From Vicinamibacterales bacterium (lineage in GTDB: Bacteria; Acidobacteriota; Vicinamibacteria; Vicinamibacterales; UBA2999), in the NCBI GenBank assembly GCA_964202965.1, contig CAXNKG010000008.1, positions 17,968-81,967 on the forward strand: a DNA stretch of 64,000 nucleotides, given 5' to 3'. Below the pieces are notes generated by a model that was not told the origin of the DNA, ran no database searches, and was given only the letters and a program-made list of their open reading frames with translations. Every line of letters begins with the position of its first letter. Within the stretch, counting starts at the first letter, position 1. Made by a program: the position numbers and the translations under genes. Below are positions 27,758 through 46,580 of the stretch, in pieces.

Positions 27758-28627
27758 TCAGCGCGGCGCGACGGCGGTGACCTCGCACATGATCCGGGCC
27801 CCCGGAATCCCGGTGCGGACGGCGCGGGTGGTCCGGCAGGGCCGCCAGTCTCCGAAGCGTTCCTGCATGGACGCCACGCCTTTCACTTCGCCCGTCCGCG
27901 CCATCAGCACGATGTTCTGCCATCCAAGGCGCGCCGTCTTCAGCATGCGATCGATGCTGTCCGCGACCATCTTTTCCTGAGCCGCCAGGTCGTCTGGCAG
28001 CTTGTAGCTGCCTGGATTCCAGGGATCGACGTCCGGCGGATACGCTGTGACCGCCGGGAAGTACACGAGGTCGACCGCGTTCGTCACGCGGATTGCGGGC
28101 GCCTGCGGCAGCTCCTTGAGCGCGACGCCCGGCCGGTCGATGATGGCTTCGATGCCGGCCACCGGCCCCCGCGCCGCGATCTGTTTGTGTGGAGCCGTGG
28201 CGGTGACCTGATACATGACGTTGACGCCAGGGACGCCGGTATCGACCACCCGCAGGCTCGTGCTGCACGGCCGCCAGTCGCCGTACTGGGCAGCGAAGTT
28301 GATCCCGCCGCCTCCCGGAGCGGCGTAGTTCACGTTGAAGACGATGTGCTCCCAGGTGGAGCCGGCCGCCTTCAGGATGCGATCGAGGTTGGCGGTCGCC
28401 ATCTTGCCGCGCTCAGCTGCGTCCTCCGGCAGACGGAAGGATCCGGGATTCCACGGGTCCACCTCCGGCGGATAGGCGCTGATGCCTGAGATGATCAGCA
28501 GATCGAGCGTCGGGCTGATCTCGATAGCGGGCGCGAATGCCGCCCGGTCCGTGACTTCGGGCCGCGGAAAGATCGCGTGAAGGCCCTTCAGCTTCGATTG
28601 ATGCGGTGAGTTTTCTGCCTGTGCCAT
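27758..28627 (-). CDS. Tandem two-domain Rid (YjgF/RidA) family protein
   Basis: Internal duplication AYPPEVDPWNPGSFRLPED / AYPPDVDPWNPGSYKLPDD; L..AG..W..IV; WRPCST / WRPCRT. Confidence 0.7.
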   Translation of the reverse strand: MAQAENSPHQSKLKGLHAIFPRPEVTDRAAFAPAIEISPTLDLLIISGISAYPPEVDPWNPGSFRLPEDAAERGKMATANLDRILKAAGSTWEHIVFNVNYAAPGGGGINFAAQYGDWRPCSTSLRVVDTGVPGVNVMYQVTATAPHKQIAARGPVAGIEAIIDRPGVALKELPQAPAIRVTNAVDLVYFPAVTAYPPDVDPWNPGSYKLPDDLAAQEKMVADSIDRMLKTARLGWQNIVLMARTGEVKGVASMQERFGDWRPCRTTRAVRTGIPGARIMCEVTAVAPR

Positions 28628-28650
28628 TGACGCCTCGTTGTTGTAACGGC

Positions 28651-29184
28651 CTACCCGACGACGACCCGCGTGCCGGCGGGCGCGACCCACATGTCAATCT
28701 CCAGGCGCGCCTGGGGAGACGAGAGGCCATTGACCTCGTAGATCGTCATTGCGGGCCACCAGTCCTTGAAGTAGCTGCGCAGCACCGCCTCGATCTGCGG
28801 CGACTCGTCCATCCGCGTCTGGTACCGCGTCAGCTTGACGACATTGCGCCAGCCAAGGCCGGCCCAGTCGAGGATCTCCTTGTGGTTGATGATCGTCAGG
28901 CGGGTCTGCAGCCGGATGTCCTCCGGCTGCACCACTTCCTCGCGGGGGTCGTGCGGGTGCTTGTGGTACAGCTCCATGGCCGTCCCACCCGCGTGCGGAA
29001 TGATGCCGTTGGTGAGCGGCACACGGATAAACGCGGCATTGCGGCCCGCGGCGCGGGCACCCGCCTGCACGGCGGCTTCCACAACTGGCGAGGGTGCGAG
29101 CGTCCCCAGTGACCCGCCGGCCGCGGCGATACCGCCAGAGCCGAGGACGCGAAGGAGTTGTCGTCGATCGAGAAACACCGCCAT
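28651..29184 (-). CDS. Tat-signal Rid family protein
   Basis: DRRQLLRVLG twin-arginine signal; DIRLQT, AGLGWRNVVK, PAMTIYEVNGL...RLEID. Confidence 0.75.
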   Translation of the reverse strand: MAVFLDRRQLLRVLGSGGIAAAGGSLGTLAPSPVVEAAVQAGARAAGRNAAFIRVPLTNGIIPHAGGTAMELYHKHPHDPREEVVQPEDIRLQTRLTIINHKEILDWAGLGWRNVVKLTRYQTRMDESPQIEAVLRSYFKDWWPAMTIYEVNGLSSPQARLEIDMWVAPAGTRVVVG

Positions 29185-29275
29185 GCGTAATCTCCTGGAA
29201 AAAGAGATGGAGCCCGGATGTCACATCGCGAGATCAGAGTACACGCGTACCGCCGCCCGGCGTGTGGCCGTTTGC

Positions 29276-29809
29276 TCAGTCAACGACGGCCACCACCTGT
29301 ATTTCGATCAATTGTTCCGGCTCGCCGAGCTCGAGCACCACGACGTTGGTCGACGTCGGTTTGTGGTTGAACGGGGCGAAGTACGAATTGATGACCGCAC
29401 TCGCGCGCCCGAGGTCGCCGATGCGGGGCCGCGTCCTGAACACAAACATGTGCACAACATCGCCGAAGGTCGCACCGGAGGCCGCGAGTGTCTGCTTAAT
29501 GCCGTCCATCGTCGCCCGCGTCTGCGCCTCGAGGTCGTTCGGCAGGTGCTTCACGACCTCGTCACGGCGATGCGGGTGATCGTGATACACCGGCACCGCA
29601 GTCGTGCCCGCCAGCCAGAGCATCTTCCCCGAGGCGACTTTGATGGCCGGCACGAACGGCATGTTCAATGACTTGTCGAAGCCCGGATGGTGAACGGCCT
29701 CGATATGTTCGCTGGGCGCCGCGGTCTGTGCGGCGGATGGCGTGGGGGCGGCAAGGAGTCCCGCGCACACGAACACGAAGATACCGGGCACTGCGACTCG
29801 CGTTGTCAT
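29276..29809 (-). CDS. Sec-signal Rid family protein
   Basis: Signal peptide; LWLAGTT, DLEAQT, ASGATFGDVV, PTSTNVVVLELGEPEQLIEIQVVA. Confidence 0.8.
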   Translation of the reverse strand: MTTRVAVPGIFVFVCAGLLAAPTPSAAQTAAPSEHIEAVHHPGFDKSLNMPFVPAIKVASGKMLWLAGTTAVPVYHDHPHRRDEVVKHLPNDLEAQTRATMDGIKQTLAASGATFGDVVHMFVFRTRPRIGDLGRASAVINSYFAPFNHKPTSTNVVVLELGEPEQLIEIQVVAVVD

Positions 29810-29849: not shown

Positions 29850-29865
29850 TGCCGAACTCATGCCA
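29850..29865 (-). promoter_or_regulatory. Sigma-54 promoter of the Rid operon
   Basis: TGGCATGAGTTCGGCA, GG-N10-GC. Confidence 0.65.
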
Positions 29866-29927: not shown

Positions 29928-29967
29928 TGTAAGAATTTCTCACGACAAGCTGTGCGCTTTCTGCACA
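29928..29967. promoter_or_regulatory. Tandem enhancer boxes TGTR-N9-CACR (probable activator binding sites)
   Basis: TGTA-agaatttct-CACG at 29928 and TGTG-cgctttctg-CACA at 29951; 23-bp spacing. Confidence 0.75.
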
Positions 29968-30063: not shown

Positions 30064-30079
30064 TGGAATAACAGTTGCT
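30064..30079 (+). promoter_or_regulatory. Sigma-54 promoter of the receptor/amidohydrolase operon
   Basis: TGGAATAACAGTTGCT (TGG-N8-TTGC). Confidence 0.8.
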
Positions 30080-30188: not shown

Positions 30189-33100
30189 ATGACGATCAGG
30201 AGGACAGTGGCGCGACTGCTCGCGGGTGTGCTGATGCTCGTGGCGCTCCCATGCGCAGCGTGGGCGCAGGCCACCGCTCAACTAAGCGGCACGGTGCGCG
30301 ACCAGGACGGCGGCGTACTGCCAGGCGTGTCCGTGACGGTGAGTCACGTCGAGACCGGCCTGACGCGTACGACGGTTACCAACGAGACCGGCACCTACGC
30401 GCTGCCGAATCTCCCGCTCGGCACGCACCGGTTCGAGGCGGCTCTCCAGGGGTTCCAGACGTACGTGCAGACGGGAATCGTGCTGCAGGTCAACAGCAGC
30501 TTCCTCATCAACCCGGTGCTCAACGTCGGCGCTCTGGCCGAGAGCGTCGAAGTGGTCGCGTCCGCGGCCATGGTGGAGACGCGCGCTGTTGGCGTCGGCC
30601 AGGTGATGGAGAACGAGCGCATCCTGGCGCTCCCGCTCAACGGACGCAACGTGGCGGATTTGATTGTGCTCTCGGGGCAGGCCGTGCAGACGGCGACGAC
30701 AACCGCCGGCAGCAGGTCCTTCCGAACAGGCGATCTCCAGCTGTCGGTCGGCGGGGGGCTGCGCGGCGGCGAGTCGTACATGCTGGACGGCGCCCGCTAC
30801 AAGAATCTGTTCGACGGCAGCGCGCTGCCGTATCCGTTTCCCGATGCGCTCCAGGAGTTCAAGGTCGAGACGTCAGGCCTGTCGGCGGAACATTCGGGCG
30901 GCGCCAGCGTCAGCGCGGTGACCCGATCCGGCACGAACCAGTTTCATGGCACCGCCTTCGAGTTCCTGCGGAACGACCTGTTCAACGCCCGGGGCTATTT
31001 CGCCACCCGGAACAGTACGCTCAAGCGCAACCAGTTCGGCGGGACGTTCGGTGGGCCGGTGCTGGAAAACCGCGTGTTCTTCTTTGGCGGCTATCAGGGG
31101 ACGATGCTGCGGCAGGATCCTGCCGACCAGCGCTCCCGGATTGTCACGCCGGCCATGCTGGCCGGCGACTGGACGACCGTCGCTTCCCCCGCCTGCAACA
31201 GCGGACGCCAGGTCACCCTGGGTGCGCCGTTCGTCAACAACCGGATCGATCCGGGGGTGTTCAGCCGTCCGTCCACCGACATTGCCAGACGGCTTCTCGC
31301 CGAGTCGGCGTCGCCGGATCCGTGCGGCGAGGTCGTCTTTGGCCGCCGCAATATCTATGACGAGCATCAGTACGTGGCGAGGGTGGACTATCAGCTGAAC
31401 AACAGCCACTCTCTCTTCGGGCGCGCCATGATCTTCACCTACGTGGCGCCCCGGCCGTCCGACTTCAACAATCCGCTTCTGAACGCGAACTCGCAGGGCG
31501 CCGCGACGTCTTCACAAGGGTATGCGACCGGGTCCAACTACATCCTCAGCCCAACCGCTGTGAACTCGCTGCGCTTTTCCGCCAACGTCCCCAGCATCAC
31601 GCGACGGACCTATGGCGGCTTCGATCCGACCGAGGTCGGCATCAATGCCGTGGCCGATACCAAGGGCTACACCATCGTGCTGATCCCCGGCGCGTTCAAT
31701 ATCGGGGCAGCGCACCTCAGCGCCGATTCGGTGTTTGACGGACACCATTTCACCATCGAGGACAGTCTCAACGTGGTGAAGGGTCGACACCAGATTGGCA
31801 TCGGCGCGAGTCTCGCCTACGCGAGCATGCACACCGAACTGGCGACGTCGGTCGCGCCGACCTTCAGCTTTACGACGCAGGTGACGGGCTTGGCGGTTGG
31901 AGACTTCATGATCGGGCGGCCCGCGTCAATGGTGCAGGGCAGTCCGGCCGATGTCGTCCAGACGCAGTGGCTCCCGGTGATGTACGCCCAGGATGCCTGG
32001 CAGGTGAAGCCGACCGTCACGCTGACCTACGGCGTCCGGTGGGAGCCAGACCTTCCGGTGGCCATGGAGGAAGGCTTCATCGTCAACTTCGACTATGAGC
32101 GCTTCCGCCAGGGGACCAAGAGCACCGTGTTCAGGAACGCGCCGGCGGGGCTCTATTACCCGGGCGATCCCGGCTTCCCCGGCAAGACGGGCGTGAACAG
32201 CTCCTGGCTGAAGTTCGCGCCGCGCCTTGGTGCGGCGTGGGATGTCCAGGGCGACGGCCGCATGTCGGTACGGGGTTCGTACGGCCTCGGCTACGACCAG
32301 CAGTTCCTCGGGTATTACAACGGCACGTTCGTCGCGTCGCCGTTCTTCAACCGCCTGACGCTCGTCAACCCGGCGGGAGGCTTGGCCAATCCGTGGCAGG
32401 GCGTGCCAGGCGGCCAGCCGTTTCCGCGGACGCAGATCGGCGCGGACGCCGCCTTCCTTCCCTTCGGCGATTATCTGAGCATGCCGTACGACCGCGAACG
32501 GCCGCGGAGTCAGTCGTGGAACGCGACCGTGCAGCGGCAGTTCGGGATCGAATGGATGGCGATGGCGAGCTACGTTGGTACCCGCGGCGACCACCTGTGG
32601 GGCATCAAGATGCTGAACCCTGGGGTCTACGTGTCGAACGGCACGGCCACCTGCACCTTGCCGAACGGGCAGGCCATCACTGGCACCGGCACGCAGTGCT
32701 CGACGACGGGGAACACCAACCAGCGCCGGCGCTTCACCGTCGAGCGTCCGCAGGACGGCCAGTTCCTCGGCCGGGTCTCGGAGTTCGACACGAACGGGAC
32801 GCAGGACTACCACGGTCTGCGGCTGTCGCTCGATCGGCGGTCGCCGCTCGGGTTGACCATTGGTGGCAACTACACGTACTCGCAATGTCTGCAGGACTTC
32901 ACGAGTGACGGATTGCCCAACGTGGAAGAGGCCTATCCCGACCCGAGCAATCGTGGCGCCGAGCGCGGCCCGTGCTTCGGTTCGCGGAACCACGCGGCCA
33001 ACGTCACGGGCGTGTACGCAGTGCCGGAATTCGCGAACCCCACGCTGCGTGCCGTGGCGAGCGGCTGGCGGGTGTCGGGCATCTACCGCCGGCTGAGCGG

Positions 33101-33509
33101 GCGGTTTGTGAACGTGACGGCGGGGCCGGACCGCGCGTTGACCGACATTGTCAATCAGCGGCCGAACCAGGTGCTGGATGACGTGTTCAGCGACACGTCG
33201 GGACGTCCGCTGTCGCAGTTCTGGAATCCGGCGGCCTTCGCTCTGCCGCCGGTCGGGACGATCAACGGCAATGCGGAGCGCAATGGCTTTGAGGGGCCGC
33301 CGACGTGGCAGCTCGACATGGCGCTGTCGCGCATCGTCCGGGTTGGCGCGCACGGACTCGAGTTCCGCGCGGAGGCGTACAACGTGACGAACAGCTTCCG
33401 GGCTGCCGATTTCGGCAACAATGTGCCGCTGAGTTCGCCGACGTTCGGGCAGATTCGCTCGGCGCTGGACTCCCGGATCCTGCAGTTTGCGCTGAAGTAC
33501 TCCTTCTAG
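30189..33509 (+). CDS. TonB-dependent receptor (Oar-like)
   Basis: Signal peptide; LPLNGRN, PDALQEFKV, TRSGTNQFHG, APRLGAAWD, RILQFALKYSF. Confidence 0.92.
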   Translation: MTIRRTVARLLAGVLMLVALPCAAWAQATAQLSGTVRDQDGGVLPGVSVTVSHVETGLTRTTVTNETGTYALPNLPLGTHRFEAALQGFQTYVQTGIVLQVNSSFLINPVLNVGALAESVEVVASAAMVETRAVGVGQVMENERILALPLNGRNVADLIVLSGQAVQTATTTAGSRSFRTGDLQLSVGGGLRGGESYMLDGARYKNLFDGSALPYPFPDALQEFKVETSGLSAEHSGGASVSAVTRSGTNQFHGTAFEFLRNDLFNARGYFATRNSTLKRNQFGGTFGGPVLENRVFFFGGYQGTMLRQDPADQRSRIVTPAMLAGDWTTVASPACNSGRQVTLGAPFVNNRIDPGVFSRPSTDIARRLLAESASPDPCGEVVFGRRNIYDEHQYVARVDYQLNNSHSLFGRAMIFTYVAPRPSDFNNPLLNANSQGAATSSQGYATGSNYILSPTAVNSLRFSANVPSITRRTYGGFDPTEVGINAVADTKGYTIVLIPGAFNIGAAHLSADSVFDGHHFTIEDSLNVVKGRHQIGIGASLAYASMHTELATSVAPTFSFTTQVTGLAVGDFMIGRPASMVQGSPADVVQTQWLPVMYAQDAWQVKPTVTLTYGVRWEPDLPVAMEEGFIVNFDYERFRQGTKSTVFRNAPAGLYYPGDPGFPGKTGVNSSWLKFAPRLGAAWDVQGDGRMSVRGSYGLGYDQQFLGYYNGTFVASPFFNRLTLVNPAGGLANPWQGVPGGQPFPRTQIGADAAFLPFGDYLSMPYDRERPRSQSWNATVQRQFGIEWMAMASYVGTRGDHLWGIKMLNPGVYVSNGTATCTLPNGQAITGTGTQCSTTGNTNQRRRFTVERPQDGQFLGRVSEFDTNGTQDYHGLRLSLDRRSPLGLTIGGNYTYSQCLQDFTSDGLPNVEEAYPDPSNRGAERGPCFGSRNHAANVTGVYAVPEFANPTLRAVASGWRVSGIYRRLSGRFVNVTAGPDRALTDIVNQRPNQVLDDVFSDTSGRPLSQFWNPAAFALPPVGTINGNAERNGFEGPPTWQLDMALSRIVRVGAHGLEFRAEAYNVTNSFRAADFGNNVPLSSPTFGQIRSALDSRILQFALKYSF

Positions 33510-33541
33510 TTCCCGCACGCTCACCCGCTGCGCGTGGAAAA

Positions 33542-33578
33542 GGGCCGGTCCTTCCTCACCTCCAGGAAGGGCCGGCCC
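33542..33578 (+). other. Intra-operon stem-loop with no U-tract
   Basis: GGGCCGGTCCTTCCT-N7-AGGAAGGGCCGGCCC; 15-bp stem with one G-U pair. Confidence 0.7.
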
Positions 33579-33606
33579 GCCTTGCGGTGCGACCGCCGGA
33601 GCCATC

Positions 33607-35313
33607 ATGCGACGCTCGAATAATCTTCTGACCGTCCTGCTGTCCGGCGGAGCCCTCTTCGCCACCGGTCTCGCCGCCGTCCTGATGACGCAGGCGCTCT
33701 CGAAGCCGCCAGATGACCGGGTGGTCAGTTATCCGGACACGCTTGTCCTGAACGGGAAGGTCGTCACGGTCGACGACGCCTCCAGTGTTCAGGAAGCGCT
33801 CGCCATTCGCGACGGCAGGTTCCTCGCGGTGGGCACGACGGCGGAGATGCGGAGTCTGGCCGGGCCCTCCACGCGCATCATCGACGCCGGCGGCCGCACG
33901 GTGCTGCCGGGACTCATCGACACACACGTCCACCTGATCCAGGCGGCGGTCTTCTGGCGCGACGAGATTCGCGTGGACGAGGCGCGCAGCCTCGACGACA
34001 TCTTTGCGGCGATCCGGGCGCGCGCGGCGACCGTGCCGCCGGGTACGTGGATTCTGATCCGCGGCGGCTGGCACTATTCCCAGCTGCGCGAGCGGCGCAT
34101 GCCGACGCGGGCCGAACTCGACCGCGTGGCCCCTGCGCACCCGGTGCACGTGCAGGCCACCTACGAGGTGGTGCAGCTCAATTCGCTGGGAATCACGGCG
34201 AGCGGAATCACGGGGCAGACGGCACTGCCGCCTGGCGGGTCGATGGAGAAGGACGCCCAGGGTAATTTCACCGGCGTGCTGCGCGGCACGCGCGGGGTGC
34301 TGATGGGCCGCGAGAAGTACTTCCCGCGCCTGTCGTTCGACGACAAGATTGCCGGCCTGCGCGCCGTGATGCGGGAGTTCAACGCCGCCGGCCTGACGGG
34401 CATCATCGACGGCAACGGGCTGTCCATCATCGAGCACTGGCTGGACAGCGACGAGGACTACCAGGCGATGTTCGAAGTGTGGCGGCGTGGGCAGATGACG
34501 CTCCGCGTCGGGCTTCAGCTGGACTCGCGCGACGAGGCGCAGGCGCTCGACGTCCTGGATCGCTTTCCGGCGCGGTTCGGCGACGACATGTTCTGGCTGA
34601 ACTCCGTCGGCGAGAACCTGATGCTGGACGTCTGGAATCCCGCCAGCTATCCGCTGCCGCCGGCGGCGCGTGCGGCGTTCACGCGCGTCGTCGAAGCGGC
34701 CGTCGCGCGCAACGCCACGATGCAGATCCACTCCCAGACCGAGCCGCAGCTGAACACCATGCTCGAGGTCTTCGAGGACGTGCACGCCCGGACGCCGCTC
34801 GATCACCTGCGCTTCACCCTTCTCCACGCGGAGCTGTTGACCCCGCCGATGATCGAACGGATGAAGCGTCTGGGCATGGGCGTCATGATCCAGTCCCGAC
34901 AGCTGGTCACGGCGGACGTGCTGCAGAAGACCTGGGGCGCGCGTATGGACGATGCGCCGATTGTCAAGACGGTGTTCGAAAGCGGACTCCCGCTCGGCGG
35001 TGGCACGGACGGCACGGTCGCGGTGCCGTTCCGGCCGTTCATGGCGCTCTATTGGTACATCTCGGGGCGCAGCTGGCGCGGGGATCTCGTGCGGCCGACG
35101 CAGCGTCTCACACGCGAGCAGGCGCTGCAGGTCTATACGCGGCAGGCCGCCTGGTTCAGCTTTCAGGAGGACCGCCGCGGTGCGATTATGCCCGGCTTTC
35201 TCGCGGACCTCATCGTGCTCGACAAGGACTACCTGACGGTGCCCGAGGAGGAGATCGCGACCATCCGCCCGGTGATGACGATCGTCGACGGGAAGGTCGT
35301 GTTCGAGCGCTGA
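33607..35313 (+). CDS. Secreted amidohydrolase 3 (YtcJ-like)
   Basis: NGKVVTVD, PGLIDTHVH, QIH, LHAE, GGTDG, GFLADLIVLD. Confidence 0.87.
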   Translation: MRRSNNLLTVLLSGGALFATGLAAVLMTQALSKPPDDRVVSYPDTLVLNGKVVTVDDASSVQEALAIRDGRFLAVGTTAEMRSLAGPSTRIIDAGGRTVLPGLIDTHVHLIQAAVFWRDEIRVDEARSLDDIFAAIRARAATVPPGTWILIRGGWHYSQLRERRMPTRAELDRVAPAHPVHVQATYEVVQLNSLGITASGITGQTALPPGGSMEKDAQGNFTGVLRGTRGVLMGREKYFPRLSFDDKIAGLRAVMREFNAAGLTGIIDGNGLSIIEHWLDSDEDYQAMFEVWRRGQMTLRVGLQLDSRDEAQALDVLDRFPARFGDDMFWLNSVGENLMLDVWNPASYPLPPAARAAFTRVVEAAVARNATMQIHSQTEPQLNTMLEVFEDVHARTPLDHLRFTLLHAELLTPPMIERMKRLGMGVMIQSRQLVTADVLQKTWGARMDDAPIVKTVFESGLPLGGGTDGTVAVPFRPFMALYWYISGRSWRGDLVRPTQRLTREQALQVYTRQAAWFSFQEDRRGAIMPGFLADLIVLDKDYLTVPEEEIATIRPVMTIVDGKVVFER

Positions 35314-38168: not shown

Positions 38169-38170
38169 TG

Positions 38171-38796: not shown

Positions 38797-38812
38797 GGCA
38801 ACTGTCATTCCA
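38797..38812 (-). promoter_or_regulatory. Sigma-54 promoter of the regulator operon
   Basis: TGGAATGACAGTTGCC, 14/16 identical to the 30064 promoter. Confidence 0.8.
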
Positions 38813-38953: not shown

Positions 38954-38969
38954 TGGTGCCTTTCTTGCT
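38954..38969 (+). promoter_or_regulatory. Sigma-54 promoter of the DUF6152 operon
   Basis: TGGTGCCTTTCTTGCT (TGG-N8-TTGC). Confidence 0.75.
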
Positions 38970-39989: not shown

Positions 39990-41110
39990 GCACGGAACGC
40001 GCCATCATGCGAATGACACGCCATACCCTGACGCGCGGTGGTTGTGCCGTGGCGCTGGTTCTGCTCGCCGTGGTCTCCGGCGTGGACCGTCTTGCGGCGC
40101 AGCAGGCGGCCCAGCCCGGTATTCAGGTGCTGCCCGTGCAGGGCAACGTCTACCTGCTTGGCGGGGCGGGCGGCAACATCAGCATTTCGACGGGGTACGA
40201 CGGCACGCTGATTGTCGACGCAGGGCGCGCCGACATGTCGGCGGCTGTGCTCGATAATCTCGAGCAGCTCGCGACGCTCGTGCAGTTGCCGTTCTTCCCA
40301 TTGGCACCGTGTGTCGGACCGCGGTGTCCGGGCGGCGCCGGGACCGGTGCCTATACGGGCGCGGGGTGGTGGACCAGCCAGGCGGTGAACGGCATGGTGC
40401 ATTCGCCTGGAGCCCTCAAGCCGCTGCGCTTCATCGTCAACACGAGTGGCGACGCCGAGCATGCCGGCGGCAATCCCGCCGTTCGCGCCGCCGGGATGAC
40501 ATTCACGGGTGGGAATGTCGCACGCGGTGCCGGCGGGGAAGGGGTCGGTGCCGAGGTCTGGGCGCATGAGGCGGTCCTGAGCCGCATGGTCGGTGAAAAG
40601 GTGGACGTCGATCGGCATGCGCAGATGACGTACGACACGCCGAAGTACAAGTGGAACGGGTTCTTTAACGGCGAAGGCATCGAACTGATTCACGTGCCCG
40701 CCGCGTCGACGGACGGCGACACCATCGTCTATTTCCGGTACTCGGACGTGATCAGCACGGGCGACGTCTTTTCGATAGACCGATATCCGGCCATCCATAT
40801 CGACCGCGGCGGTTCGATCCAGGGCACGGTCGACGGCCTCAACAGGATCCTCGACATGGCCGTAGCCCAGAACAAGTCCCAGGGGGGCACCTATATCGTG
40901 CCGGGCCACGGCCGGGTCGCCGACATCGGCGATGTCGCGAATTATCGCAACATGGTGATCCGGGTTCGCGACCGGATTCAGGACTCGATCAAGAACGGGC
41001 AGTCGCTGCAGCAAGTGCGAGCAGCACGTCCCACGCTGGATTTCGACGGTATGTACGGTTCTCCCGACGCATTCATTGAGGCGGTGTATCGAAGCCTCAG
41101 CACGCGCTAG
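39986..41110 (+). CDS. Secreted MBL-fold (cyclase-like) protein with degenerate metal motif
   Basis: VQGNVYLLGGAGGNI, IVDAG, IVNTSGDAEHAGGN, ASTDGD, STGDVF, VPGHG. Confidence 0.8.
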   Translation: MSTERAIMRMTRHTLTRGGCAVALVLLAVVSGVDRLAAQQAAQPGIQVLPVQGNVYLLGGAGGNISISTGYDGTLIVDAGRADMSAAVLDNLEQLATLVQLPFFPLAPCVGPRCPGGAGTGAYTGAGWWTSQAVNGMVHSPGALKPLRFIVNTSGDAEHAGGNPAVRAAGMTFTGGNVARGAGGEGVGAEVWAHEAVLSRMVGEKVDVDRHAQMTYDTPKYKWNGFFNGEGIELIHVPAASTDGDTIVYFRYSDVISTGDVFSIDRYPAIHIDRGGSIQGTVDGLNRILDMAVAQNKSQGGTYIVPGHGRVADIGDVANYRNMVIRVRDRIQDSIKNGQSLQQVRAARPTLDFDGMYGSPDAFIEAVYRSLSTR

Positions 41111-41123
41111 ACGCGAGGAGCCC

Positions 41124-41525
41124 ATGATGAAAATGAAGAGCTTCGTTCTGACTGTGATGGTCCTGGTTGCGTCCGGTGTGGGGATTCAGGCCCACCATTC
41201 ATTCGCCGGCACCTATGACCTGAAGCGCCAGGTCAAGGTTGAGGGCACGCTCATCCGCGTGCAGTTCCGGAACCCGCACTCGTTCGTGACCGTCAAGGCA
41301 CCCGACGAAACGGGGACCATGCAGGATTGGTCTGTCGAGTGGAGCGGTCTGCCGCAGCTCGCCGGTGACGGCGTGTCGTCGAAGACCATCATGGTCGGGG
41401 ATCCCGTTGTGATCACCGGCAATCCCTCGCGCACCGCTGGCGAGCACCGCCTCCGCATGGTGATGTTCCAGCGCACCTCGGACGGCTTTACGTGGGGCGG
41501 CCGGGCGAGCGAGGTCGTCAATTGA
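41124..41525 (+). CDS. DUF6152 family secreted protein
   Basis: A-HHSFAGTYD, FRNPHS, WSVEW; paralog of 9130-9528. Confidence 0.8.
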   Translation: MMKMKSFVLTVMVLVASGVGIQAHHSFAGTYDLKRQVKVEGTLIRVQFRNPHSFVTVKAPDETGTMQDWSVEWSGLPQLAGDGVSSKTIMVGDPVVITGNPSRTAGEHRLRMVMFQRTSDGFTWGGRASEVVN

Positions 41526-42301
41526 TGCGACGCGGACTGCGGCGTGCGGCGCTGCTCTGCGCCTCGTCGGTCATCGCCGTCGCGGCGGCGTTTACTGAGA
41601 CCGCGGCGCAGCAGCCGGCGGGGGGCCGGGGGCAGGGTCCGCAGCCCACGGCGCGGGCTGCGGCGGCCGTCGATGTCACCGGGAACTGGGTTTCGGTCAT
41701 CACCGAAGAATGGGTATCGCGCATGGTGACGCCCAGGAAGGGCTACGTACGCGGCGGGGGCATTCACGTCACGCCCGAAGGCATGAAATTGGTGAACGCG
41801 TGGGATCCAGCCGGGGACGAAGCCGCCGGCGAGCAGTGCAAGGGATATGGCGCCGTCGGGGTGACCCGATTGCCCGGACGTGTACGCCTCAGCTGGCAGG
41901 ACGAGACCACATTGAAGGCGGAGTTTGAGGCGGGGAATCAGGTGCGGCTGTTTCGCTTTGCGGCTGCGCCGGCAGCCGGTGCGCCAAGCTGGCAGGGACA
42001 ATCGGCTGCGCAGTGGGAGCGGGCCGTGGCAGCCGCGGGGCAGCGCGAAGGTAACCTGAAGGTCACGACGACCAATCTGCGCGCGCAGTACGCCCGCAAG
42101 AACGGCCTGCCCGTCAGCGCCAGCGCGACGCTGACCGAGTATCTCCACGTGCTGCAGGCGCCGTCGGGCGATACCTGGCTCAGCTGGATCGGCGAACTCG
42201 ACGAGCCGCGCTACTATCTCGAGCCGTATCACTACAGTTTTCAGTTCAAGAAGCTTCCGGCGAATTCGCCGTGGACGCCGGAGCCCTGCTCGGCGCGGTA
42301 G
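41525..42301 (+). CDS. Secreted hypothetical protein, distantly like 39057-39989
   Basis: Signal peptide; DVTGNW, QCKGYG, WQGQSAAQW, LKVTTTNL, C-terminal PC. Confidence 0.7.
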   Translation: MRRGLRRAALLCASSVIAVAAAFTETAAQQPAGGRGQGPQPTARAAAAVDVTGNWVSVITEEWVSRMVTPRKGYVRGGGIHVTPEGMKLVNAWDPAGDEAAGEQCKGYGAVGVTRLPGRVRLSWQDETTLKAEFEAGNQVRLFRFAAAPAAGAPSWQGQSAAQWERAVAAAGQREGNLKVTTTNLRAQYARKNGLPVSASATLTEYLHVLQAPSGDTWLSWIGELDEPRYYLEPYHYSFQFKKLPANSPWTPEPCSAR

Positions 42302-42305
42302 TCCG

Positions 42306-44526
42306 GTGAGGGTCAGCCTCGCGCTCGCCGCGGTGGCGTGTGGCACCCTTGGCGTGTCGGCCGCGAATGCGCAGGGACCCGACGCCGGCGACCTACGGCC
42401 GCGTGCCGTCGTGACGCGGATCGAATCAGCCATCGCAGTCGATGGGTTCTTGCGCGAGGAGGCCTGGCGGACTGCCGCGCCGCTCGGGGCGCTGACGCAA
42501 CGCGAACCGAAGGTGGGCGCCGAGCCGTCGGAGCGCACGGTGATCACGGTGCTGTACGACGCCGACGCGCTCTACATCGGCATCGTCGCGCACGACTCCG
42601 AACCGGATGGGATTATCGGCACACAGATGACCCGCGACGGCGGCCTCCACGGCGACGATCGAATCGAGATTCTCCTGGATACGTTCCGCGATCAGCGGAA
42701 TGCGTACTACTTTCGCCACGAACCCCGCGGGTGCGCTCGTCGACGGCCTCATCTTCGCGAATGGACAATCGAATCTGGAGTGGGACGCGATCTGGACGGT
42801 GCGGACGCGACGGGTCCCGGAGGGCTGGAGCGCGGAATTTGCGATCCCATTCAGGAGCCTGAGCTTCCCGGCCGGCCAGACCGTCTGGGGGCTCAATGTC
42901 GCACGCCACATCCGTAGGAAGGCGGAAGAAGACCGCTGGGCGGGCGCGCGACTGGAGACGCAGTTTTTTCACGTCTCCGAAGCTGGCGACCTCATGCGCC
43001 TGGAGGGTTTGAGCCAGGGCGTCGGGCTTGATCTGCGTCCATTCGCCGCGGGCCAGTGGCGTGACTCGGCGCGACGCGACACCACCACGCTGACTGGCCG
43101 ACCTGGTTTCGACCTGACGTACAACGTCACGTCGAGCCTCAAGGTAACCGCCACGGTCAATACCGACTTCGGCGAGACGGAGGTCGACGCCCGGCAGATT
43201 AATCTGACTCGCTTTTCGCTCTTTTTTCCGGAGAAGCGCGCCTTCTTCCTCGAAGATGCAGGCGTCTTCAGTTTTTCCAATACCGGCATCCGCGGGTCAT
43301 GGGGCATCCCAGCCCTTCGGTCAGAGGCGCTGCCGTTCTTCAGCCGCCAGATTGGCCTTCTGAACGGCGAGGAGGTCCCGATCGACGTGGGCGTGAAAGT
43401 GACGGGCAAGATCGGACGTACGGATCTCGGAGTCCTCGACGTCCGGACATCCGACAGTGTAACCACGCCCGCGCGGAACCTTCTTGTTGCGCGCCTCCGG
43501 CGAAATTTTCTCCAGCAATCCTCCATTGGCGCGATCGTGACGCACGGCGACCCTGCGCGTGCGCGCGACAGCGCCACCTACGGCGCCGATCTGCGCCTGG
43601 CGACAGCGCGGTTTCTGGGGCAATCGCGAAACCTGATGCTGAACGCGTATGGTCTGCAGACGGTGACGGAGGGACGACGAGGGAACAATCTTTCGTACGG
43701 CGCGTCCCTCGAGTACCCCAATGACGTGGTCGAAGCGGAGGTGGTGCTGCGTGAGATTCAGCAGGACTTTCGGCCAGCGCTCGGATTCGTGTCCCGTAGA
43801 AACGTGCGGGTGTTTCGTGCCGGCGGCCGCTACAACCCTCGGCCCGGCGAGTTTCTCGGTCTGCAGCAGATGTTCCACGGAGCGTACTTCACCCGATACA
43901 CGCGTCTGGACATCGACCAGACAGAGAGCTGGAACCTGCACGTGATTGCGCCAATCGACTGGCATTTTGCGTCGGGCGATGCCGTCCACTCCATGTTTAG
44001 CCCGGTGGTCAACTACGAGCGGTTGTTCGCGCCGTTCGAGATTTCTCCCGGAGTCGTTCTCCCCGGGGGCGAGTACCGGTTCACGCGCTGGCGCTCCGAT
44101 CTCGCGACAGCGCCTCAGCGAACGCTGCAGACGAACATCAACTGGCAGTTCGGCCGCTATTGGTCGGGGACCGCCGACGAGCTTCAGGTATCGGTCACGT
44201 ACCGGCTGCCACCGCGGCTCGCGATCACGCTCAATACGAATCAGACGTTCGCCGATTTGCCGCAGGGGAGCTTCGTTGCCCGCATCCTCGGCATGCAGTT
44301 CAATTACTCGTTCTCGCCGTTCCTGTCGACGTCAGGCCTCGCGCAGTTCGACAATCTGACAAGGAACCTTGGATGGCAGAGCCGGCTGCGGTGGATTCAG
44401 CGCCCTGGCAACGACGTCTTCCTCGTGTTCAGCCAGGGATGGCTGCAGGACGCTCTGGGTGGACTGCGGTTCCATCAGCAGGACCAGAAGCTGTCTGGCA
44501 AACTGCAGTACACGGTGCGGCTGTAA
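42306..44526 (+). pseudogene. CBM9-like/DUF5916 protein split by a +1 frameshift at ~42711
   Basis: First frame: signal peptide...DTFRDQRNAYYF; the family sequence FATNPAG...NTDFGETEVD...PEKRAFFLE continues in the +1 frame across TAC-TTT-C-GCC. Confidence 0.8.
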
Positions 44527-44551
44527 GATCACGATGAGAAGGAGGACTGCG

Positions 44552-45547
44552 ATGCCTACACCCTATCGCCTGGTCGCGTGCACGCTGGTGGCCCTGCTGG
44601 GTCCGGCGGTGATGACCCCGCTGGCCGCACTGCAGGGCGGTCCTCCGCCCGCGGCTCCGGTCGCTGATAAAGGCCTGACGGATCCGGCGCTTGCTGGCGC
44701 GCTCGACACGCACGCGCACATGGCGCCAGACAGCCCGGAGCCGCAGATCCGTGGGATCGACGTTATCGACTACGCGCAGATGGCGAAGGCGCGCGGCATG
44801 CGCGGATTCGTGATCAAGCAGCAGTACGACCAGACGGCGCAGCTGGCGTACCTGGCCCGGAAGGTCGTGCCCGGTCTCGAGGTGTTCGGCGGCATCGTGA
44901 TGAGCCGCACCGTCGGCGGCATGAGCGCCGAAGCCGTCCAGCACATGGCCCGCGTCACCGGCGGCTGGGGACGGATCGTCTGGATGCCGACCCTCAATGC
45001 CGAAGGCAACACCGTCGGTGGCACCAATCCTCCGTTTGTGCTCGTGTCGAAGAACGGAGAGCTGCTGCCCGAGACACGCGCGGTCCTCGAGGTCATTGCG
45101 AAGACGCGAACCGTCGACAGCAACGGCGAGCTGGTCCTTGCGACCGGGCACATGCCGTCGAAGGAAGCGCTGATGGTGCTTCGCGCGGCGCGCGACGCCG
45201 GCGTGAAGCACATGGTCGTCACGCACGGGGCAACCACCTGGCCGATTCCAGACCTTCAGGAGGCGATCACGCTTGGCGCGATGGTCGAGGCACGAGCCGG
45301 GTTCGATCTGATTGCGGAACCCCGGCCGAACGGCGACCCGCGAAAGGTCACGACCGACGTGATCCGGCAGCTCGGTCCGGAGCACATCGTGATCGCGAGC
45401 GATCTGGGCCAGCGCACGAATCCGGTCCACCCGGACGGGCTCGCGACCGCGGCGAAGTGGCTGCGAAGCCAGGGTTTCACGGACCGGCAGTTGACGATGA
45501 TGTTCAAGGAAAATCCGGCGCGCCTGATGGGGCTTCCGCTCCAGTAA
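44552..45547 (+). CDS. Secreted DUF6282-like amidohydrolase-fold protein
   Basis: RBS AAGGAGG; DTHAHMAPD, VWMPT, LATGH, VTH, SDLGQ, KENPARL. Confidence 0.75.
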   Translation: MPTPYRLVACTLVALLGPAVMTPLAALQGGPPPAAPVADKGLTDPALAGALDTHAHMAPDSPEPQIRGIDVIDYAQMAKARGMRGFVIKQQYDQTAQLAYLARKVVPGLEVFGGIVMSRTVGGMSAEAVQHMARVTGGWGRIVWMPTLNAEGNTVGGTNPPFVLVSKNGELLPETRAVLEVIAKTRTVDSNGELVLATGHMPSKEALMVLRAARDAGVKHMVVTHGATTWPIPDLQEAITLGAMVEARAGFDLIAEPRPNGDPRKVTTDVIRQLGPEHIVIASDLGQRTNPVHPDGLATAAKWLRSQGFTDRQLTMMFKENPARLMGLPLQ

Positions 45548-45563
45548 CAGAAGGAGTCTGCAG

Positions 45564-46580
45564 ATGAACGGCACACGGATATTCGCGGCGGCGGCGGTGT
45601 GGTGCCTGGCGGCGGCGTCCGCCCTGAGTCAGCAGGCGGCTCCTGCCCGGCAGCAGGCGCAGGCACCCGCCGCGCCTCGCTCGCGGGTTGCGGCGACCGA
45701 CATGAAAGCCACAGCGATCCCCGGCGTCGTTGCCGAGGGCGCCACGGTGCAGGTCATCAAACGCGATTTCGAAGTGGCCATCAACGGGCCGATTGGACTG
45801 CCGGACGGCAGTGGCGTGCTCATCGCCGAAATCCTCCGCAACCGCGTCTGGAAATTCGACAACAACAACCAGGGATCCGTCTTCGTCGACAACTCGAGCG
45901 GCGCTTTGTGCCTCGCGTTCGACGCCAAGGGACGGCTGATCGCCAATCAGACGACGCCGGCCGAGCGAAACAAGATTGCGGTGATCTATCCGCGCGGTCA
46001 GGAAGCCGTGCTCGCAGACAACTTCGACGGGATGGCGTTTGGGCGGCCGAACGACCTGGCAATCAATCGCGGGGGCGGCATCTACTTTACCGACCCCGGC
46101 CCCAATCAGGGGCAGATGAAGATCGGTCATCCGAAAACGGATCCGGCAGTGTTCTACATTCCGTCAGGCGGCAAGGCCCTGAAGGTCGCTGTGGACATTC
46201 CCGATCCGAACGGTCTGATCCTCAGCCCTGACGAGAAGACGCTGTACGTCGCCGACACGTCGAGCGAGTTCGTGTATGCCTATGACGTGCGAGCCGATGG
46301 GCAGCTCGGAACCCGTAGAAATTTCGCGCGACTGCAGGAGGGCAAGGAGGCGGAGGCGGATGGACTGGCGATCGATAACGACGGCCGCCTCTACGCGTCA
46401 GTCTGGGGAGGCGTCGAAGTGTTCGATGCGCAGGGCCGCAGACTCGGGCTGATTCCCGGCAGCGGACCAGGAAACCTGGCATTCGGCGGACCTGACAGAA
46501 GGACGCTGTACATCACCGGCGGAACGTCGCTGTCGAAAGTGCCCTTGCTCGCGCAGGGGCCGAAAGCGCGCGCGAAATAA
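45564..46580 (+). CDS. Secreted SMP-30/gluconolactonase family protein
   Basis: RPNDL, IYFTDP, PNGLILSPDEKTLYVAD, ADGLAID, NLAFGG. Confidence 0.88.
   Translation: MNGTRIFAAAAVWCLAAASALSQQAAPARQQAQAPAAPRSRVAATDMKATAIPGVVAEGATVQVIKRDFEVAINGPIGLPDGSGVLIAEILRNRVWKFDNNNQGSVFVDNSSGALCLAFDAKGRLIANQTTPAERNKIAVIYPRGQEAVLADNFDGMAFGRPNDLAINRGGGIYFTDPGPNQGQMKIGHPKTDPAVFYIPSGGKALKVAVDIPDPNGLILSPDEKTLYVADTSSEFVYAYDVRADGQLGTRRNFARLQEGKEAEADGLAIDNDGRLYASVWGGVEVFDAQGRRLGLIPGSGPGNLAFGGPDRRTLYITGGTSLSKVPLLAQGPKARAK

What the first reader, a model, noticed from the sequence alone, without database searches (positions are those of the whole stretch)
27758..46580. Self-contained sigma-54 regulon: two divergent promoter pairs sharing twin TGTG-N9-CACA enhancers
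Seen: four -24/-12 elements (29850-29865 minus, 30064-30079 plus, 38797-38812 minus, 38954-38969 plus). Two are nearly identical (TGGAATAACAGTTGCT / TGGAATGACAGTTGCC). Each divergent pair brackets two TGTG-N9-CACA-type boxes spaced 23 bp apart at both loci, and the best boxes share TGTG..AGAAA.GCGCACAG-like sequence. A GAFTGA-containing activator and its kinase lie between the loci, behind one of the promoters. Established: sigma-54 needs such an activator bound at upstream tandem sites. Inference: one two-component system autoactivates and co-induces about 15 genes, almost all with export signals (Rid proteins, TonB receptor, amidohydrolase, DUF6152 module, MBL fold, DUF5916, DUF6282, lactonase). 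This looks like an uncharacterised periplasmic uptake-and-processing pathway; the inducer is unknown.
Basis: partly seen in the sequence, partly recalled or inferred. Interest (0 to 1): 0.88.

Follow-up and report, generated by a model that had tools for sequence, protein, structure and literature searches.

The report
Sigma-54 two-component regulon, shared enhancers
An uncultured lake-water acidobacterium carries a sensor-kinase and activator pair that most likely switches on itself and three neighbouring operons for an outer-membrane receptor and exported hydrolases, through two back-to-back sigma-54 promoter pairs that share paired activator sites; the wiring is a familiar kind but the controlled pathway is unknown.

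Summary
All four -24/-12 elements, the boxes and the 23-bp box spacing are at the stated coordinates. At locus A only one box is exact. The other is TGTA-N9-CACG.

At locus B the two promoters and two boxes are the only conserved islands when aligned with three metagenome contigs and one Vicinamibacterales MAG. In these elements 56 of 66 columns are identical in all four sequences, against 54 of 244 elsewhere.

Genome-wide there are 13 exact boxes in 2.70 Mb. Tandem boxes 23 bp apart with 2 or fewer mismatches occur only at loci A and B. Of 302 divergent intergenic regions, 3 carry outward-facing sigma-54-like pairs, and two of them are these loci.

rpoN is present. The regulator has REC, an AAA+ domain with GAFTGA, and HTH_8.

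Best reading: an autoregulated NtrC-family two-component system drives four operons of 15-16 genes from two shared bidirectional enhancers, an arrangement like ZraPSR.

Locus A is less well supported, because the only orthologue is a decayed remnant.

No binding or transcription-start data could be obtained. The inducer and the pathway chemistry remain unknown.

This is a new member of a known kind, of moderate interest.

The parts
29850..29865 (-). A-minus sigma-54-like promoter TGGCATGAGTTCGGCA, in front of the three-gene Rid operon; predicted start near 29839
   Evidence: Sequence. It matches 9 of 12 consensus positions. An identical 17-mer, GTGGCATGAGTTCGGCA, lies in the decayed locus-A remnant of L036 at 10501-10517.
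29928..29944 (.). Box A1, TGTAAGAATTTCTCACG (degenerate: 2 of the 8 defining bases differ)
   Evidence: It starts 23 bp before A2. Its reverse complement shares GTGAGAAA with B2.
29951..29967 (.). Box A2, TGTGCGCTTTCTGCACA (exact TGTG-N9-CACA)
   Evidence: Its reverse complement matches B2 at 14 of 17 positions.
30064..30079 (+). A-plus sigma-54-like promoter TGGAATAACAGTTGCT, in front of the receptor and amidohydrolase genes; predicted start near 30090
   Evidence: The 15-mer TGGAAYRACAGTTGC occurs 3 times in 194 family genomes: here, at B-minus, and at the B-minus orthologue in G136.
38797..38812 (-). B-minus sigma-54-like promoter TGGAATGACAGTTGCC, in front of P1, kinase and regulator (autoregulation); predicted start near 38786
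   Evidence: In the four-way alignment 14 of 16 columns are identical.
38862..38878 (.). Box B1, TGTGTCGAAGGCACACA
   Evidence: In the four-way alignment 12 of 17 columns are identical. The 23-bp spacing to B2 is kept in L033, L034 and L036.
38885..38901 (.). Box B2, TGTGAGAAAAGCGCACA (the best conserved box)
   Evidence: In the four-way alignment 16 of 17 columns are identical.
38954..38969 (+). B-plus sigma-54-like promoter TGGTGCCTTTCTTGCT, in front of the 39057-46580 operon; predicted start near 38980
   Evidence: In the four-way alignment 14 of 16 columns are identical. It is kept in L036 although the first downstream gene there is different.
35335..36693 (-). Sigma-54 activator: REC, AAA+ domain with GAFTGA, and HTH_8; 452 aa (P0003)
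   Evidence: Pfam and translation. The closest NCBIfam models are AtoC, ZraR and NtrC, all below their cut-offs. The helix-turn-helix is conserved in L035 and L036.
36690..38168 (-). Sensor histidine kinase: transmembrane segments near residues 12-32 and 194-216, a periplasmic domain of about 160 aa, then HisKA and HATPase_c
   Evidence: Pfam and hydropathy. An orthologue with 66% identity lies in L036.
38171..38746 (-). P1: exported all-helical protein of 191 aa, first gene of the kinase-regulator operon; no known family
   Evidence: Translation. No Pfam or NCBIfam match. AlphaFold2 mean pLDDT 83.5, and no PDB fold match better than E = 0.2. It lies next to the kinase in L033, L034, L035 and L036.
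27758..29809 (-). Rid operon: 29276-29809 (Rid, signal peptide), 28651-29184 (Rid, twin-arginine-like RRQLL leader), 27758-28690 (weak Rid match, no signal peptide seen)
   Evidence: Pfam PF01042 scores are 51.4, 52.5 and 29 bits against a cut-off of 27.3. Frames were chosen by codon-position GC.
30189..35313 (+). TonB-dependent-receptor-like outer-membrane protein (30189-33509; CarboxypepD_reg and OMP_b-brl_4) and Amidohydro_3 enzyme (33607-35313); both have N-terminal hydrophobic leaders
   Evidence: Pfam and N-termini.
39057..46580 (+). B-plus operon: P0002 (39057-39989, calycin-like barrel), metallo-beta-lactamase-fold SoxH-like gene (39986-41110), DUF6152 (41076-41525), a P0002 paralogue (41492-42301), CBM9-DUF5916 (42306-44526, frameshifted near 42720), DUF6282, which is phosphotriesterase-like (44369-45547), and an SGL lactonase-like gene (45564-46580)
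   Evidence: Pfam and NCBIfam. Frameshift. The gene order P0002, MBL-fold gene, DUF6152, paralogue, DUF6282, SGL is kept in L033 without CBM9-DUF5916. P0002 model.

Best explanation
The region is an autoregulated NtrC-family two-component regulon.

**Proposed mechanism**
1. The membrane kinase (36690-38168) senses a periplasmic signal through its periplasmic domain of about 160 aa. The co-transcribed exported helical protein P1 may take part in sensing.
2. The kinase phosphorylates the regulator (35335-36693) at the receiver aspartate, which I read as D54 in 'VLLDIRMP'.
3. Phosphorylated regulator dimers occupy two 17-bp dyads that start 23 bp apart: A1 and A2 at 29928-29967, and B1 and B2 at 38862-38901.
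4. The dimers assemble into the active AAA+ ring.
5. By DNA looping, the ring remodels sigma-54 holoenzyme waiting at the -24/-12 promoters on both sides of each enhancer.

**Predicted outcome**
- Four operons, 15-16 genes, are switched on together:
  - the P1, kinase and regulator operon (positive feedback);
  - the Rid operon;
  - the outer-membrane receptor plus amidohydrolase;
  - the operon of six to eight exported binding proteins and hydrolases.
- The box centres lie about -84 and -107 from the predicted B-minus start, -87 and -110 from B-plus, -97 and -120 from A-minus, and -131 and -154 from A-plus.

**Shown and inferred**
- Shown here: the sequence elements, their rarity, their conservation at locus B, and the domain make-up of the proteins.
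- Inferred: binding of this particular regulator, the transcription starts, co-induction, and the physiological role. I take the role to be uptake and periplasmic hydrolysis of an unknown compound.
For: **Sigma-54 machinery**
- rpoN is present.
- The genome has 15 full sigma-54 activator genes.
- The regulator has REC, Sigma54_activat, AAA_lid and HTH_8 domains and the GAFTGA motif.

**Rarity of the boxes**
- All 3 exact boxes in the window fall in the two divergent intergenic regions, against an expectation of 0.54.
- The whole genome has 13 exact boxes.
- Tandem pairs at 23 bp with 2 or fewer mismatches occur only at loci A and B.
- Only these boxes have outward-facing sigma-54-like elements on both sides.
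- Two of the 3 outward-facing promoter pairs found among 302 divergent regions are these loci.

- Within the four elements, 56 of 66 columns are identical in all four sequences, against 54 of 244 in the rest of the intergenic region.
- The box spacing is 23 bp in all four.
- The gap from B2 to the plus promoter is 51-52 bp in all four.
- The gap from the minus promoter to B1 is 49 bp here and 80-81 bp in the other three. The difference of 31-32 bp is about three helical turns (coordinates).

**Link to this regulator**
- In L036 the B-plus promoter and boxes are kept although a different gene follows.
- The regulator's helix-turn-helix (SRAAE-LKINRRLLYDKLQ) is conserved.

**Locus A and specificity**
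- The A-plus and B-minus promoters share a 15-mer found only 3 times in 194 family genomes, always in this system.
- None of 16 paralogous receptor or module loci in the same genome has a comparable promoter plus box.

**Operon structure**
- Genes are tightly packed, and no sigma-70-like promoters or terminators were found above the shuffled expectation.
Against: - There are no experimental data: no transcription-start, binding or rpoN-dependence data.
- By a simple consensus score each -24/-12 element matches only 9 of 12 positions, as do more than 1000 sites in the genome.
- The A-minus promoter has a poor -12 element (CGGCA), and box A1 is degenerate.
- Locus A could be compared with only one orthologous stretch, in L036.
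  - That stretch is a patchwork of gene fragments.
  - The promoter 17-mer there lies within an open frame, and no Rid operon follows it.
- Two DNA-level Rid homologues in other genera (G169, G142) have no boxes and no plausible sigma-54 promoter.
- A very similar single box (C27:37056, TGTGCAATTTCTGCACA) lies between a different, non-REC activator gene and a sigma-54-like promoter of a subtilase gene. The motif may therefore not be exclusive to this regulator.
- A 266-nt contig from an RNA library of a related organism (30 differences) covers 38792-38990, which is the whole enhancer.
  - If it is RNA, it would mean transcription through the intergenic region.
  - DNA carry-over cannot be excluded.
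- The A-plus operon and the kinase-regulator operon converge with a 21-bp gap and no terminator was found. Co-induction would therefore make the two collide.
Confidence: 0.72

Rival explanations
1. Only locus B is a real target: autoregulation plus the 39057-46580 operon. The locus-A elements would then be chance or relics, and the Rid, receptor and amidohydrolase genes would be controlled otherwise.
For: - Box A1 misses 2 of 8 defining bases, and the A-minus -12 element is weak.
- The only orthologous locus A, in L036, is decayed.
- Rid homologues in G169 and G142 lack the elements.
Against: - A2 is one of only 13 exact boxes in the genome, and its reverse complement matches B2 at 14 of 17 positions.
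- The same 23-bp tandem geometry is found nowhere else in the genome at 2 or fewer mismatches.
- The A-plus promoter shares a 15-mer with B-minus that is otherwise absent from 194 genomes.
- A 17-nt identity to the A-minus promoter survives in L036, next to fragments of the receptor and Rid genes.
Confidence: 0.15
2. The boxes are operators of another DNA-binding protein, not of the adjacent regulator. Candidates are a CRP/FNR-type factor or another of the 15 activators.
For: - TGTG...CACA arms recall the CRP half-sites. This is recalled, not tested.
- A look-alike box lies beside a different activator gene on contig C27.
- The genome has 15 activator genes.
Against: - The arm spacing is N9, not the N8 of a CRP site (recalled).
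- The 17-bp dyad has the geometry known for NtrC-type sites (recalled).
- The boxes travel with P1, kinase and regulator in all four loci, including L036, where the neighbouring operon differs.
- The regulator's helix-turn-helix is conserved together with the boxes.
- The C27 activator is only 41% identical over the aligned region and differs in the helix-turn-helix.
Confidence: 0.08
3. The conserved islands are not sigma-54 promoters. They would be other conserved signals, such as operators or sigma-70-type elements, and the genes would be transcribed independently of rpoN.
For: - Each element has only a modest consensus score.
- No transcription-start data exist.
Against: - All four elements keep GG-N10-GC, and three have TTGC at -12.
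- The islands coincide with the 16-mers.
- No sigma-70-like promoters above the shuffled expectation were found in 27500-47400: 2 found against 2.1 expected.
- A GAFTGA activator sits in the locus, and rpoN is present.
Confidence: 0.05

Closest known systems
ZraPSR (zraP and zraSR of E. coli and Salmonella)
   Same: - An NtrC-family response regulator with a membrane kinase activates two divergent sigma-54 promoters from the shared intergenic region and thereby autoregulates. [quoted passage not shown]
- In E. coli the two promoter motif centres are 154 bp apart (table passage of PMC4591121). At locus B they are about 157 bp apart.
- A small exported protein belongs to the system.
   Different: - P1 is co-transcribed with the kinase and regulator, not divergent from them.
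- P1 has no Pfam match and no fold match to solved structures.
- The regulator scores 410.7 bits against the ZraR model, below its cut-off of 760.
- A second enhancer and promoter pair lies 9 kb away.
- The targets are a receptor, Rid proteins and hydrolases, not a chaperone.
NtrBC with glnAp2-type tandem enhancers
   Same: - The regulator has the same REC, AAA+ and Fis-type HTH layout.
- 17-bp dyad sites occur in tandem about 80-150 bp upstream of a -24/-12 promoter, and the regulator activates its own operon. The NtrC site geometry is recalled, not tested.
   Different: - The half-sites differ: TGTG..CACA here against TGCACC..GGTGCA (recalled).
- The score against the NtrC model is 406.5 bits, below its cut-off of 558.6.
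- The kinase senses in the periplasm.
- The locus has no nitrogen-assimilation genes.
AtoSC
   Same: It is the best NCBIfam match for both the regulator (443.1 bits) and the kinase core (252.4 bits).
   Different: - Both scores are far below the equivalog cut-offs of 714 and 646.
- The kinase match covers only residues 262-489, so the sensor domain is unrelated.
- There are no ato genes.
GlrKR (QseEF), with GlrR sites TGTC-N10-GACA
   Same: The enhancer is a TGT...ACA-type dyad bound at several sites by a response-regulator activator. The motif is taken from the table in PMC4987338.
   Different: - The spacing differs by one base: TGT-N11-ACA here against TGT-N12-ACA.
- The score against the GlrR model is 351.3 bits, below its cut-off of 763.
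- The targets differ.

Membership tests
Sigma-54-dependent promoter | GG and GC dinucleotides 10 bp apart (TGGCAC-N5-TTGCW type), upstream of a gene and in its orientation | tested here: met
   All four elements have it. Each matches 9 of 12 consensus positions. The consensus itself is recalled.
Sigma-54-dependent promoter | Conserved in orthologous loci as a discrete island | tested here: met
   B-minus and B-plus each have 14 of 16 columns identical in four loci. For the A promoters this is inconclusive, because only the L036 remnant could be compared.
Sigma-54-dependent promoter | Transcription start 11-13 nt downstream of the GC, and dependence on rpoN | not testable with these tools
   Only contigs, not raw RNA reads, were available.
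NtrC-family bacterial enhancer-binding response regulator | REC domain, AAA+ sigma-54 interaction domain with the GAFTGA loop, and a C-terminal Fis-type HTH | tested here: met
   PF00072 (110.9 bits), PF00158 (240.5 bits) and PF02954 (30.7 bits). GYEKGAFTGA is present.
AtoC, ZraR, NtrC and GlrR equivalogs (NCBIfam) | Score above the curated equivalog cut-off | tested here: not met
   Scores against cut-offs: 443.1 vs 714, 410.7 vs 760, 406.5 vs 558.6, and 351.3 vs 763.
ZraPSR-type system | Divergent sigma-54 promoters that share the regulator's binding region, one of them driving the kinase and regulator genes | tested here: met
   Locus B. Comparison with passages of PMC4987338 and PMC4591121.
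ZraPSR-type system | A periplasmic partner of the ZraP, CpxP or Spy family | tested here: not met
   P1 has no Pfam hit at E up to 5 other than an unrelated match at 0.15. Its confident model (pLDDT 83.5) has no PDB match better than E = 0.2.
Enhancer (UAS) of an NtrC-type activator | Tandem dyad sites 80-160 bp upstream of the start, conserved together with the regulator | tested here: met
   Positions. Conservation and the invariant 23-bp spacing. Binding itself was not tested.
CRP-type site | TGTGA-N6-TCACA, that is TGTG-N8-CACA (recalled) | tested here: not met
   All boxes have N9 between the TGTG and CACA arms.
TonB-dependent receptor | Plug domain plus a 22-strand barrel | tested here: inconclusive
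   The 30189-33509 product matches OMP_b-brl_4 (568 bits) and CarboxypepD_reg. No Plug hit was reported at E up to 0.001. The neighbouring paralogue 24743-27682 does have Plug.
Rid (YjgF/L-PSP) family | Pfam PF01042 above the gathering score | tested here: met
   Scores are 51.4, 52.5 and 29 bits against a cut-off of 27.3. All are below the NCBIfam RidA and RutC cut-offs.

The most novel reading that the evidence does not exclude
The regulon may be a dedicated uptake and periplasmic breakdown route for a hydrophobic lactone or ester compound, such as an acyl-homoserine-lactone-like signal or a lactone-type metallophore.

- One operon combines three unrelated folds that I recall each include lactonases:
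  - a metallo-beta-lactamase fold;
  - the phosphotriesterase-like DUF6282;
  - an SGL/arylesterase propeller.
- The same operon also holds two calycin-like barrel proteins of a large family without any Pfam model, and a DUF6152 protein. The mature DUF6152 would begin with His-His.
- This operon is co-induced with an outer-membrane receptor, an amidohydrolase and exported Rid deaminases.
- On the regulatory side, one enhancer-bound ring would fire two promoters placed almost mirror-symmetrically, at about -84 and -107 on one side and -87 and -110 on the other.
Probability: 0.12. Interest if true: 0.7.

Novelty: new member of a known kind. Interest (0 to 1): 0.42.

Why it matters
It gives a concrete and testable regulatory map for an uncultured Vicinamibacterales lineage: four promoters, four boxes, one kinase-regulator pair.

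It also ties several families of unknown function into one co-regulated unit with a TonB-type receptor. These are DUF6152, DUF5916, DUF6282 and a P0002 family that is unnamed and strongly expanded. These families are abundant in the group. P0002 has 20 matches in this 2.7-Mb genome and more than 30 in many relatives. DUF6152 and DUF5916 are also present in many copies. A defined inducible promoter set would be a way to find their substrate.

The regulatory logic itself is textbook, so the value lies in annotation and as an entry point, not in a new principle.

Tried and rejected
**Searches for more orthologues**
- P1 (P0001) was found in 1 of 61 genomes, the own one only, among the relatives.
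- In the family it matched 4 of 194 genomes at E up to 0.001. Only G136 is a real match (6e-71). The other two are at 2.2e-4 and 8.5e-4.
- A B2-like pattern with up to 2 mismatches matched 35 of 401 order genomes.
  - Every match outside the own genome had 2 mismatches.
  - The reversed control pattern also matched many genomes; I did not count them.
  - None of the 20 loci fetched had a tandem box.
  - I treat these matches as chance.
- A DNA search with 29276-30700 matched 90 of 194 family genomes, almost all through the conserved receptor N-terminus.
  - Two matches covered the Rid gene (G169, G142).
  - Neither had boxes.

**Sequencing runs**
- Ten runs were listed, mostly lake-water metagenomes.
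- Laying four of them gave contigs only, so no starts, strands or expression levels could be read. No variant information was obtained for locus A beyond one identical 648-nt contig.

**Protein-level attempts**
- Complex prediction of P1 with the kinase periplasmic domain gave no verdict (scores 0.75, 0.29, 0.27). It counts neither for nor against binding.
- The fold search for P1 gave no match, so a ZraP, CpxP or Spy-like identity is rejected.
- The fold search for P0002 gave only weak matches to calycin-type folds, the best at E = 3e-3. This is a hint only.
- The Atlas search for P0002 returned unnamed clusters.

**RNA and literature**
- Rfam found nothing in 27000-48000.
- Full-text searches for 'DUF6152' and for 'Vicinamibacter' with 'sigma-54' returned no papers.
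- A search on Acidobacteria, sigma-54 and TonB-dependent receptors listed 5 papers. Judged by title and abstract, none concerns this system.
- Supplementary files were not consulted.

**Rejected idea**
- Sigma-54 control is not generic to receptor and DUF6152 modules of this genome: 0 of 16 paralogous loci have the elements.

**Not done**
- I built no position-weight matrix from published promoter tables. The simple consensus score is crude.

Full report
**Source and setting**

The window is contig C8:17968-81967 of a metagenome-assembled genome of 2.70 Mb in 56 contigs. It is 84.7% complete and has 66.7% G+C. The closest named relative found is a Vicinamibacterales MAG. Runs that hold the stretch are mostly lake-water metagenomes. 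rpoN is present at C29:27236-27709, matching the Sigma54_DBD model at 219.7 bits. Fifteen full-length sigma-54 activator genes were found.

**Gene content**

Gene calls rest on ORFs, codon-position GC, Pfam and NCBIfam.

| Operon | Genes |
|---|---|
| A-minus | Rid 29276-29809; Rid 28651-29184 (the correct frame, not 28694-29224); weak Rid 27758-28690 |
| A-plus | receptor-like outer-membrane protein 30189-33509 (CarboxypepD_reg and OMP_b-brl_4); Amidohydro_3 33607-35313 |
| B-minus | P1 38171-38746; kinase 36690-38168; regulator 35335-36693 |
| B-plus | P0002 39057-39989; MBL-fold SoxH-like 39986-41110; DUF6152 41076-41525; P0002 paralogue 41492-42301; CBM9-DUF5916 42306-44526; DUF6282 44369-45547; SGL lactonase-like 45564-46580 |

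- Most products have signal-peptide-like N-termini, and one Rid has an RRQLL twin-arginine-like leader.
- CBM9-DUF5916 is split between two frames near 42720.
- Genes within each operon abut or overlap, and no excess of sigma-70-like promoters or terminators was found.
- The A-plus and B-minus operons converge with a 21-bp gap.

**Checking the observation**

- In the window, TGTG-N9-CACA occurs three times against 0.54 expected, and all three lie in the two divergent intergenic regions.
- The second locus-A box is degenerate (TGTA-N9-CACG), but it starts 23 bp before the exact one, as at locus B.
- The reverse complement of A2 matches B2 at 14 of 17 positions.
- The A-plus and B-minus promoters match at 14 of 16 positions.

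**Is it more than chance?**

- Taken alone, each promoter element is unremarkable. In the genome, 1146 sites with GG and GC in place match 9 or more of the 12 consensus positions.
- Sites scoring 10 or more are about twice as dense outside the cores of genes: 48 in 0.70 Mb against 60 in 1.99 Mb.
- The combination is rare.
  - There are 13 exact boxes genome-wide.
  - Seven tandem pairs at 22-24 bp have 3 or fewer mismatches. The only two with 2 or fewer are loci A and B.
  - Of the 13 exact boxes, only the three here have outward-facing elements on both sides.
  - Of 302 divergent regions in my crude gene calls, 53 have at least one element. Three have an outward-facing pair, and two of those are loci A and B.
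- None of 16 paralogous receptor, Rid or module loci in the same genome shows a promoter plus box.

**Conservation at locus B**

- P1 has almost no relatives. It was found in none of 60 relatives and in one real case among 193 other family genomes, G136.
- One metagenome scan gave three contigs with P1 at 79-87% identity: L033, L034 and L035.
- A genome-contig scan with the kinase gave L036, at 66% identity. It is the same contig as G136:C586, which is flagged unpublished.
  - Within the elements, 56 of 66 columns are identical in all four sequences, against 54 of 244 elsewhere.
  - Against L036 alone the figures are 57 of 66 and 91 of 244.
  - Columns are not independent, so the Fisher p-values (8e-21 and 4e-13) are only indicative.
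- The box spacing is 23 bp in all four loci.
- The gap from B2 to the plus promoter is 51-52 bp in all four.
- The gap from the minus promoter to B1 is 49 bp in the window and 80-81 bp in the others. The difference is close to three helical turns, which fits a face-of-the-helix constraint. That reading is an inference.
- In L036 the gene behind the B-plus promoter is an intact CBM9-DUF5916 instead of P0002, yet the promoter and boxes are kept. The elements therefore belong to the kinase-regulator unit and not to a particular target gene.
- The regulator's C-terminal helix-turn-helix is nearly invariant among the window, L035 and L036.

**Conservation at locus A**

- L035 ends inside the amidohydrolase gene.
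- L036 carries only remnants:
  - fragments of the receptor N- and C-termini, at 78-86% DNA identity;
  - a fragment of the third Rid gene;
  - an inserted molybdopterin-oxidoreductase and cytochrome b gene;
  - an A1-like box;
  - a 17-mer identical to the A-minus promoter, which there lies in an open frame with no Rid operon behind it.
- This shows that locus A was linked to the system in a common ancestor. It is weak evidence for present function.
- Stronger support comes from within the genome.
  - The tandem geometry is unique to the two loci.
  - The 15-mer TGGAAYRACAGTTGC is found 3 times in 194 family genomes: at A-plus, at B-minus and at the B-minus orthologue in G136. The reversed control pattern gave 1 hit.

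**Mechanism**

- The regulator has REC, AAA+ with GAFTGA, and HTH_8.
- It is nearest to AtoC, ZraR and NtrC but below every equivalog cut-off. The closest solved structures are NtrC-family proteins.
- The kinase has two transmembrane segments flanking a periplasmic domain of about 160 aa. Only its catalytic core resembles AtoS and ZraS.
- I infer phosphorylation-dependent binding of dimers to the paired 17-bp dyads, ring assembly, and looping to holoenzyme at both flanking promoters.
- Box centres lie -84 to -154 from the predicted starts, which is the usual range for such enhancers. That range is established knowledge recalled by me.
- Because B-minus drives P1, the kinase and the regulator, the circuit should amplify itself.

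**Function of the regulon**

- P0002 and its paralogue at 41492-42301 have no Pfam or NCBIfam family.
- An AlphaFold2 model of P0002 was made from 22 aligned sequences and has mean pLDDT 72.5. It shows a beta-barrel with weak resemblance to fatty-acid-binding, avidin and calycin folds. The best Foldseek hit has E = 3e-3 and a target-normalised TM-score of 0.54-0.60.
- The operon also holds MBL-fold, phosphotriesterase-like (DUF6282) and SGL enzymes.
- Together with the receptor, the amidohydrolase and the exported Rid proteins, this suggests uptake and periplasmic hydrolysis of an unknown, possibly hydrophobic ester, lactone or amide compound. This is speculation. No substrate can be named.
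- P1 is a confident all-helical bundle (pLDDT 83.5) with no structural relative in the PDB.

**Comparison with known systems**

- The arrangement at locus B is that of ZraPSR.
  - PMC4987338 (passages read) states that ZraR controls divergent sigma-54 promoters for zraSR and zraP.
  - The motif table in PMC4591121 (passage read) places the two E. coli motifs 154 bp apart. Here they are about 157 bp apart.
- GlrR sites are TGTC-N10-GACA (table in PMC4987338). The present boxes are one base shorter.
- Membership of the ZraR, AtoC, NtrC or GlrR equivalogs is not met, and P1 is not ZraP-like.
- The system is therefore a new member of the NtrC-type two-component sigma-54 class. Its distinguishing feature is that the shared-enhancer divergent-promoter module is used twice.

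**Limits**

- There are no data on binding, transcription starts or expression.
- The only RNA-library material was contigs from a relative. One of them covers the whole locus-B enhancer, and DNA carry-over cannot be excluded.
- The genome is incomplete, so further targets may exist.
- A single look-alike box at C27:37056 precedes a sigma-54-like promoter of a subtilase gene, next to another activator.
- Claims that use L036 (G136) rest on a genome flagged as unpublished.

**Verdict**

Confidence is about 0.72 for the full four-operon regulon and higher for locus B alone. It is a new member of a known kind, with interest 0.42.

Noticed in passing
window 47705-54328 (+): A single 2207-aa open frame combines a DUF748/AsmA-like N-terminus, a TamB domain (residues 1107-1442), POTRA repeats and an Omp85 barrel (1911-2207). 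It looks like a TamB-TamA fusion in one polypeptide.
   Followed up: no
window 39057-39989 and 41492-42301; loci L003-L031: P0002 belongs to a family with no Pfam or NCBIfam model that is strongly expanded. It has 20 matches in this 2.7-Mb genome, more than 30 in many genomes of the same family, and matches in 33 of 36 family relatives. The model suggests a calycin-like barrel with many conserved His and Cys residues.
   Followed up: partly
window 42306-44526: The CBM9-DUF5916 gene is split between two frames near 42720, either as a pseudogene or through an assembly error. It is absent from the otherwise collinear contig L033, and it is the first gene behind the B-plus promoter in L036. The genome holds about a dozen intact paralogues.
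   Followed up: partly
G000:C27:37056-37072 (locus L092 about 9057): A single exact box, TGTGCAATTTCTGCACA, is very like A2. It lies just downstream of a non-REC sigma-54 activator gene and about 125 bp upstream of a CGGCAGTAAACTTGCC element and a subtilase gene. It could be a further target or the site of a paralogous activator.
   Followed up: partly
G000:C35:8832-8951: This is the only other divergent intergenic region in the genome with outward-facing sigma-54-like elements: CGGCATGCTTGATGCT and TGGCGCGAGGTCTGCA.
   Followed up: no
window 41076-41525 and about 25 paralogues in the genome: After its predicted signal peptide, the DUF6152 protein would begin with His-His (…GIQA/HHSF…). The family is present in about 25 copies, often next to receptor genes. 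No paper mentions DUF6152.
   Followed up: no
window 35313-35335: The A-plus operon and the kinase-regulator operon converge with only 21 bp between their stop codons, and no terminator-like hairpin was found. Co-induction would mean head-on transcription.
   Followed up: no
L036 (G136:C586) 7900-11400: The region orthologous to locus A is a patchwork. It holds receptor fragments, an inserted molybdopterin-oxidoreductase and cytochrome b561 gene, a C-terminal piece resembling a Mo-enzyme dimerisation domain, and a Rid fragment. It is either real decay or a chimeric assembly.
   Followed up: partly
G000:C8:82080-82580, just beyond the window's end: Another sigma-54 activator gene lies about 100 bp past the end of the window.
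   Followed up: no
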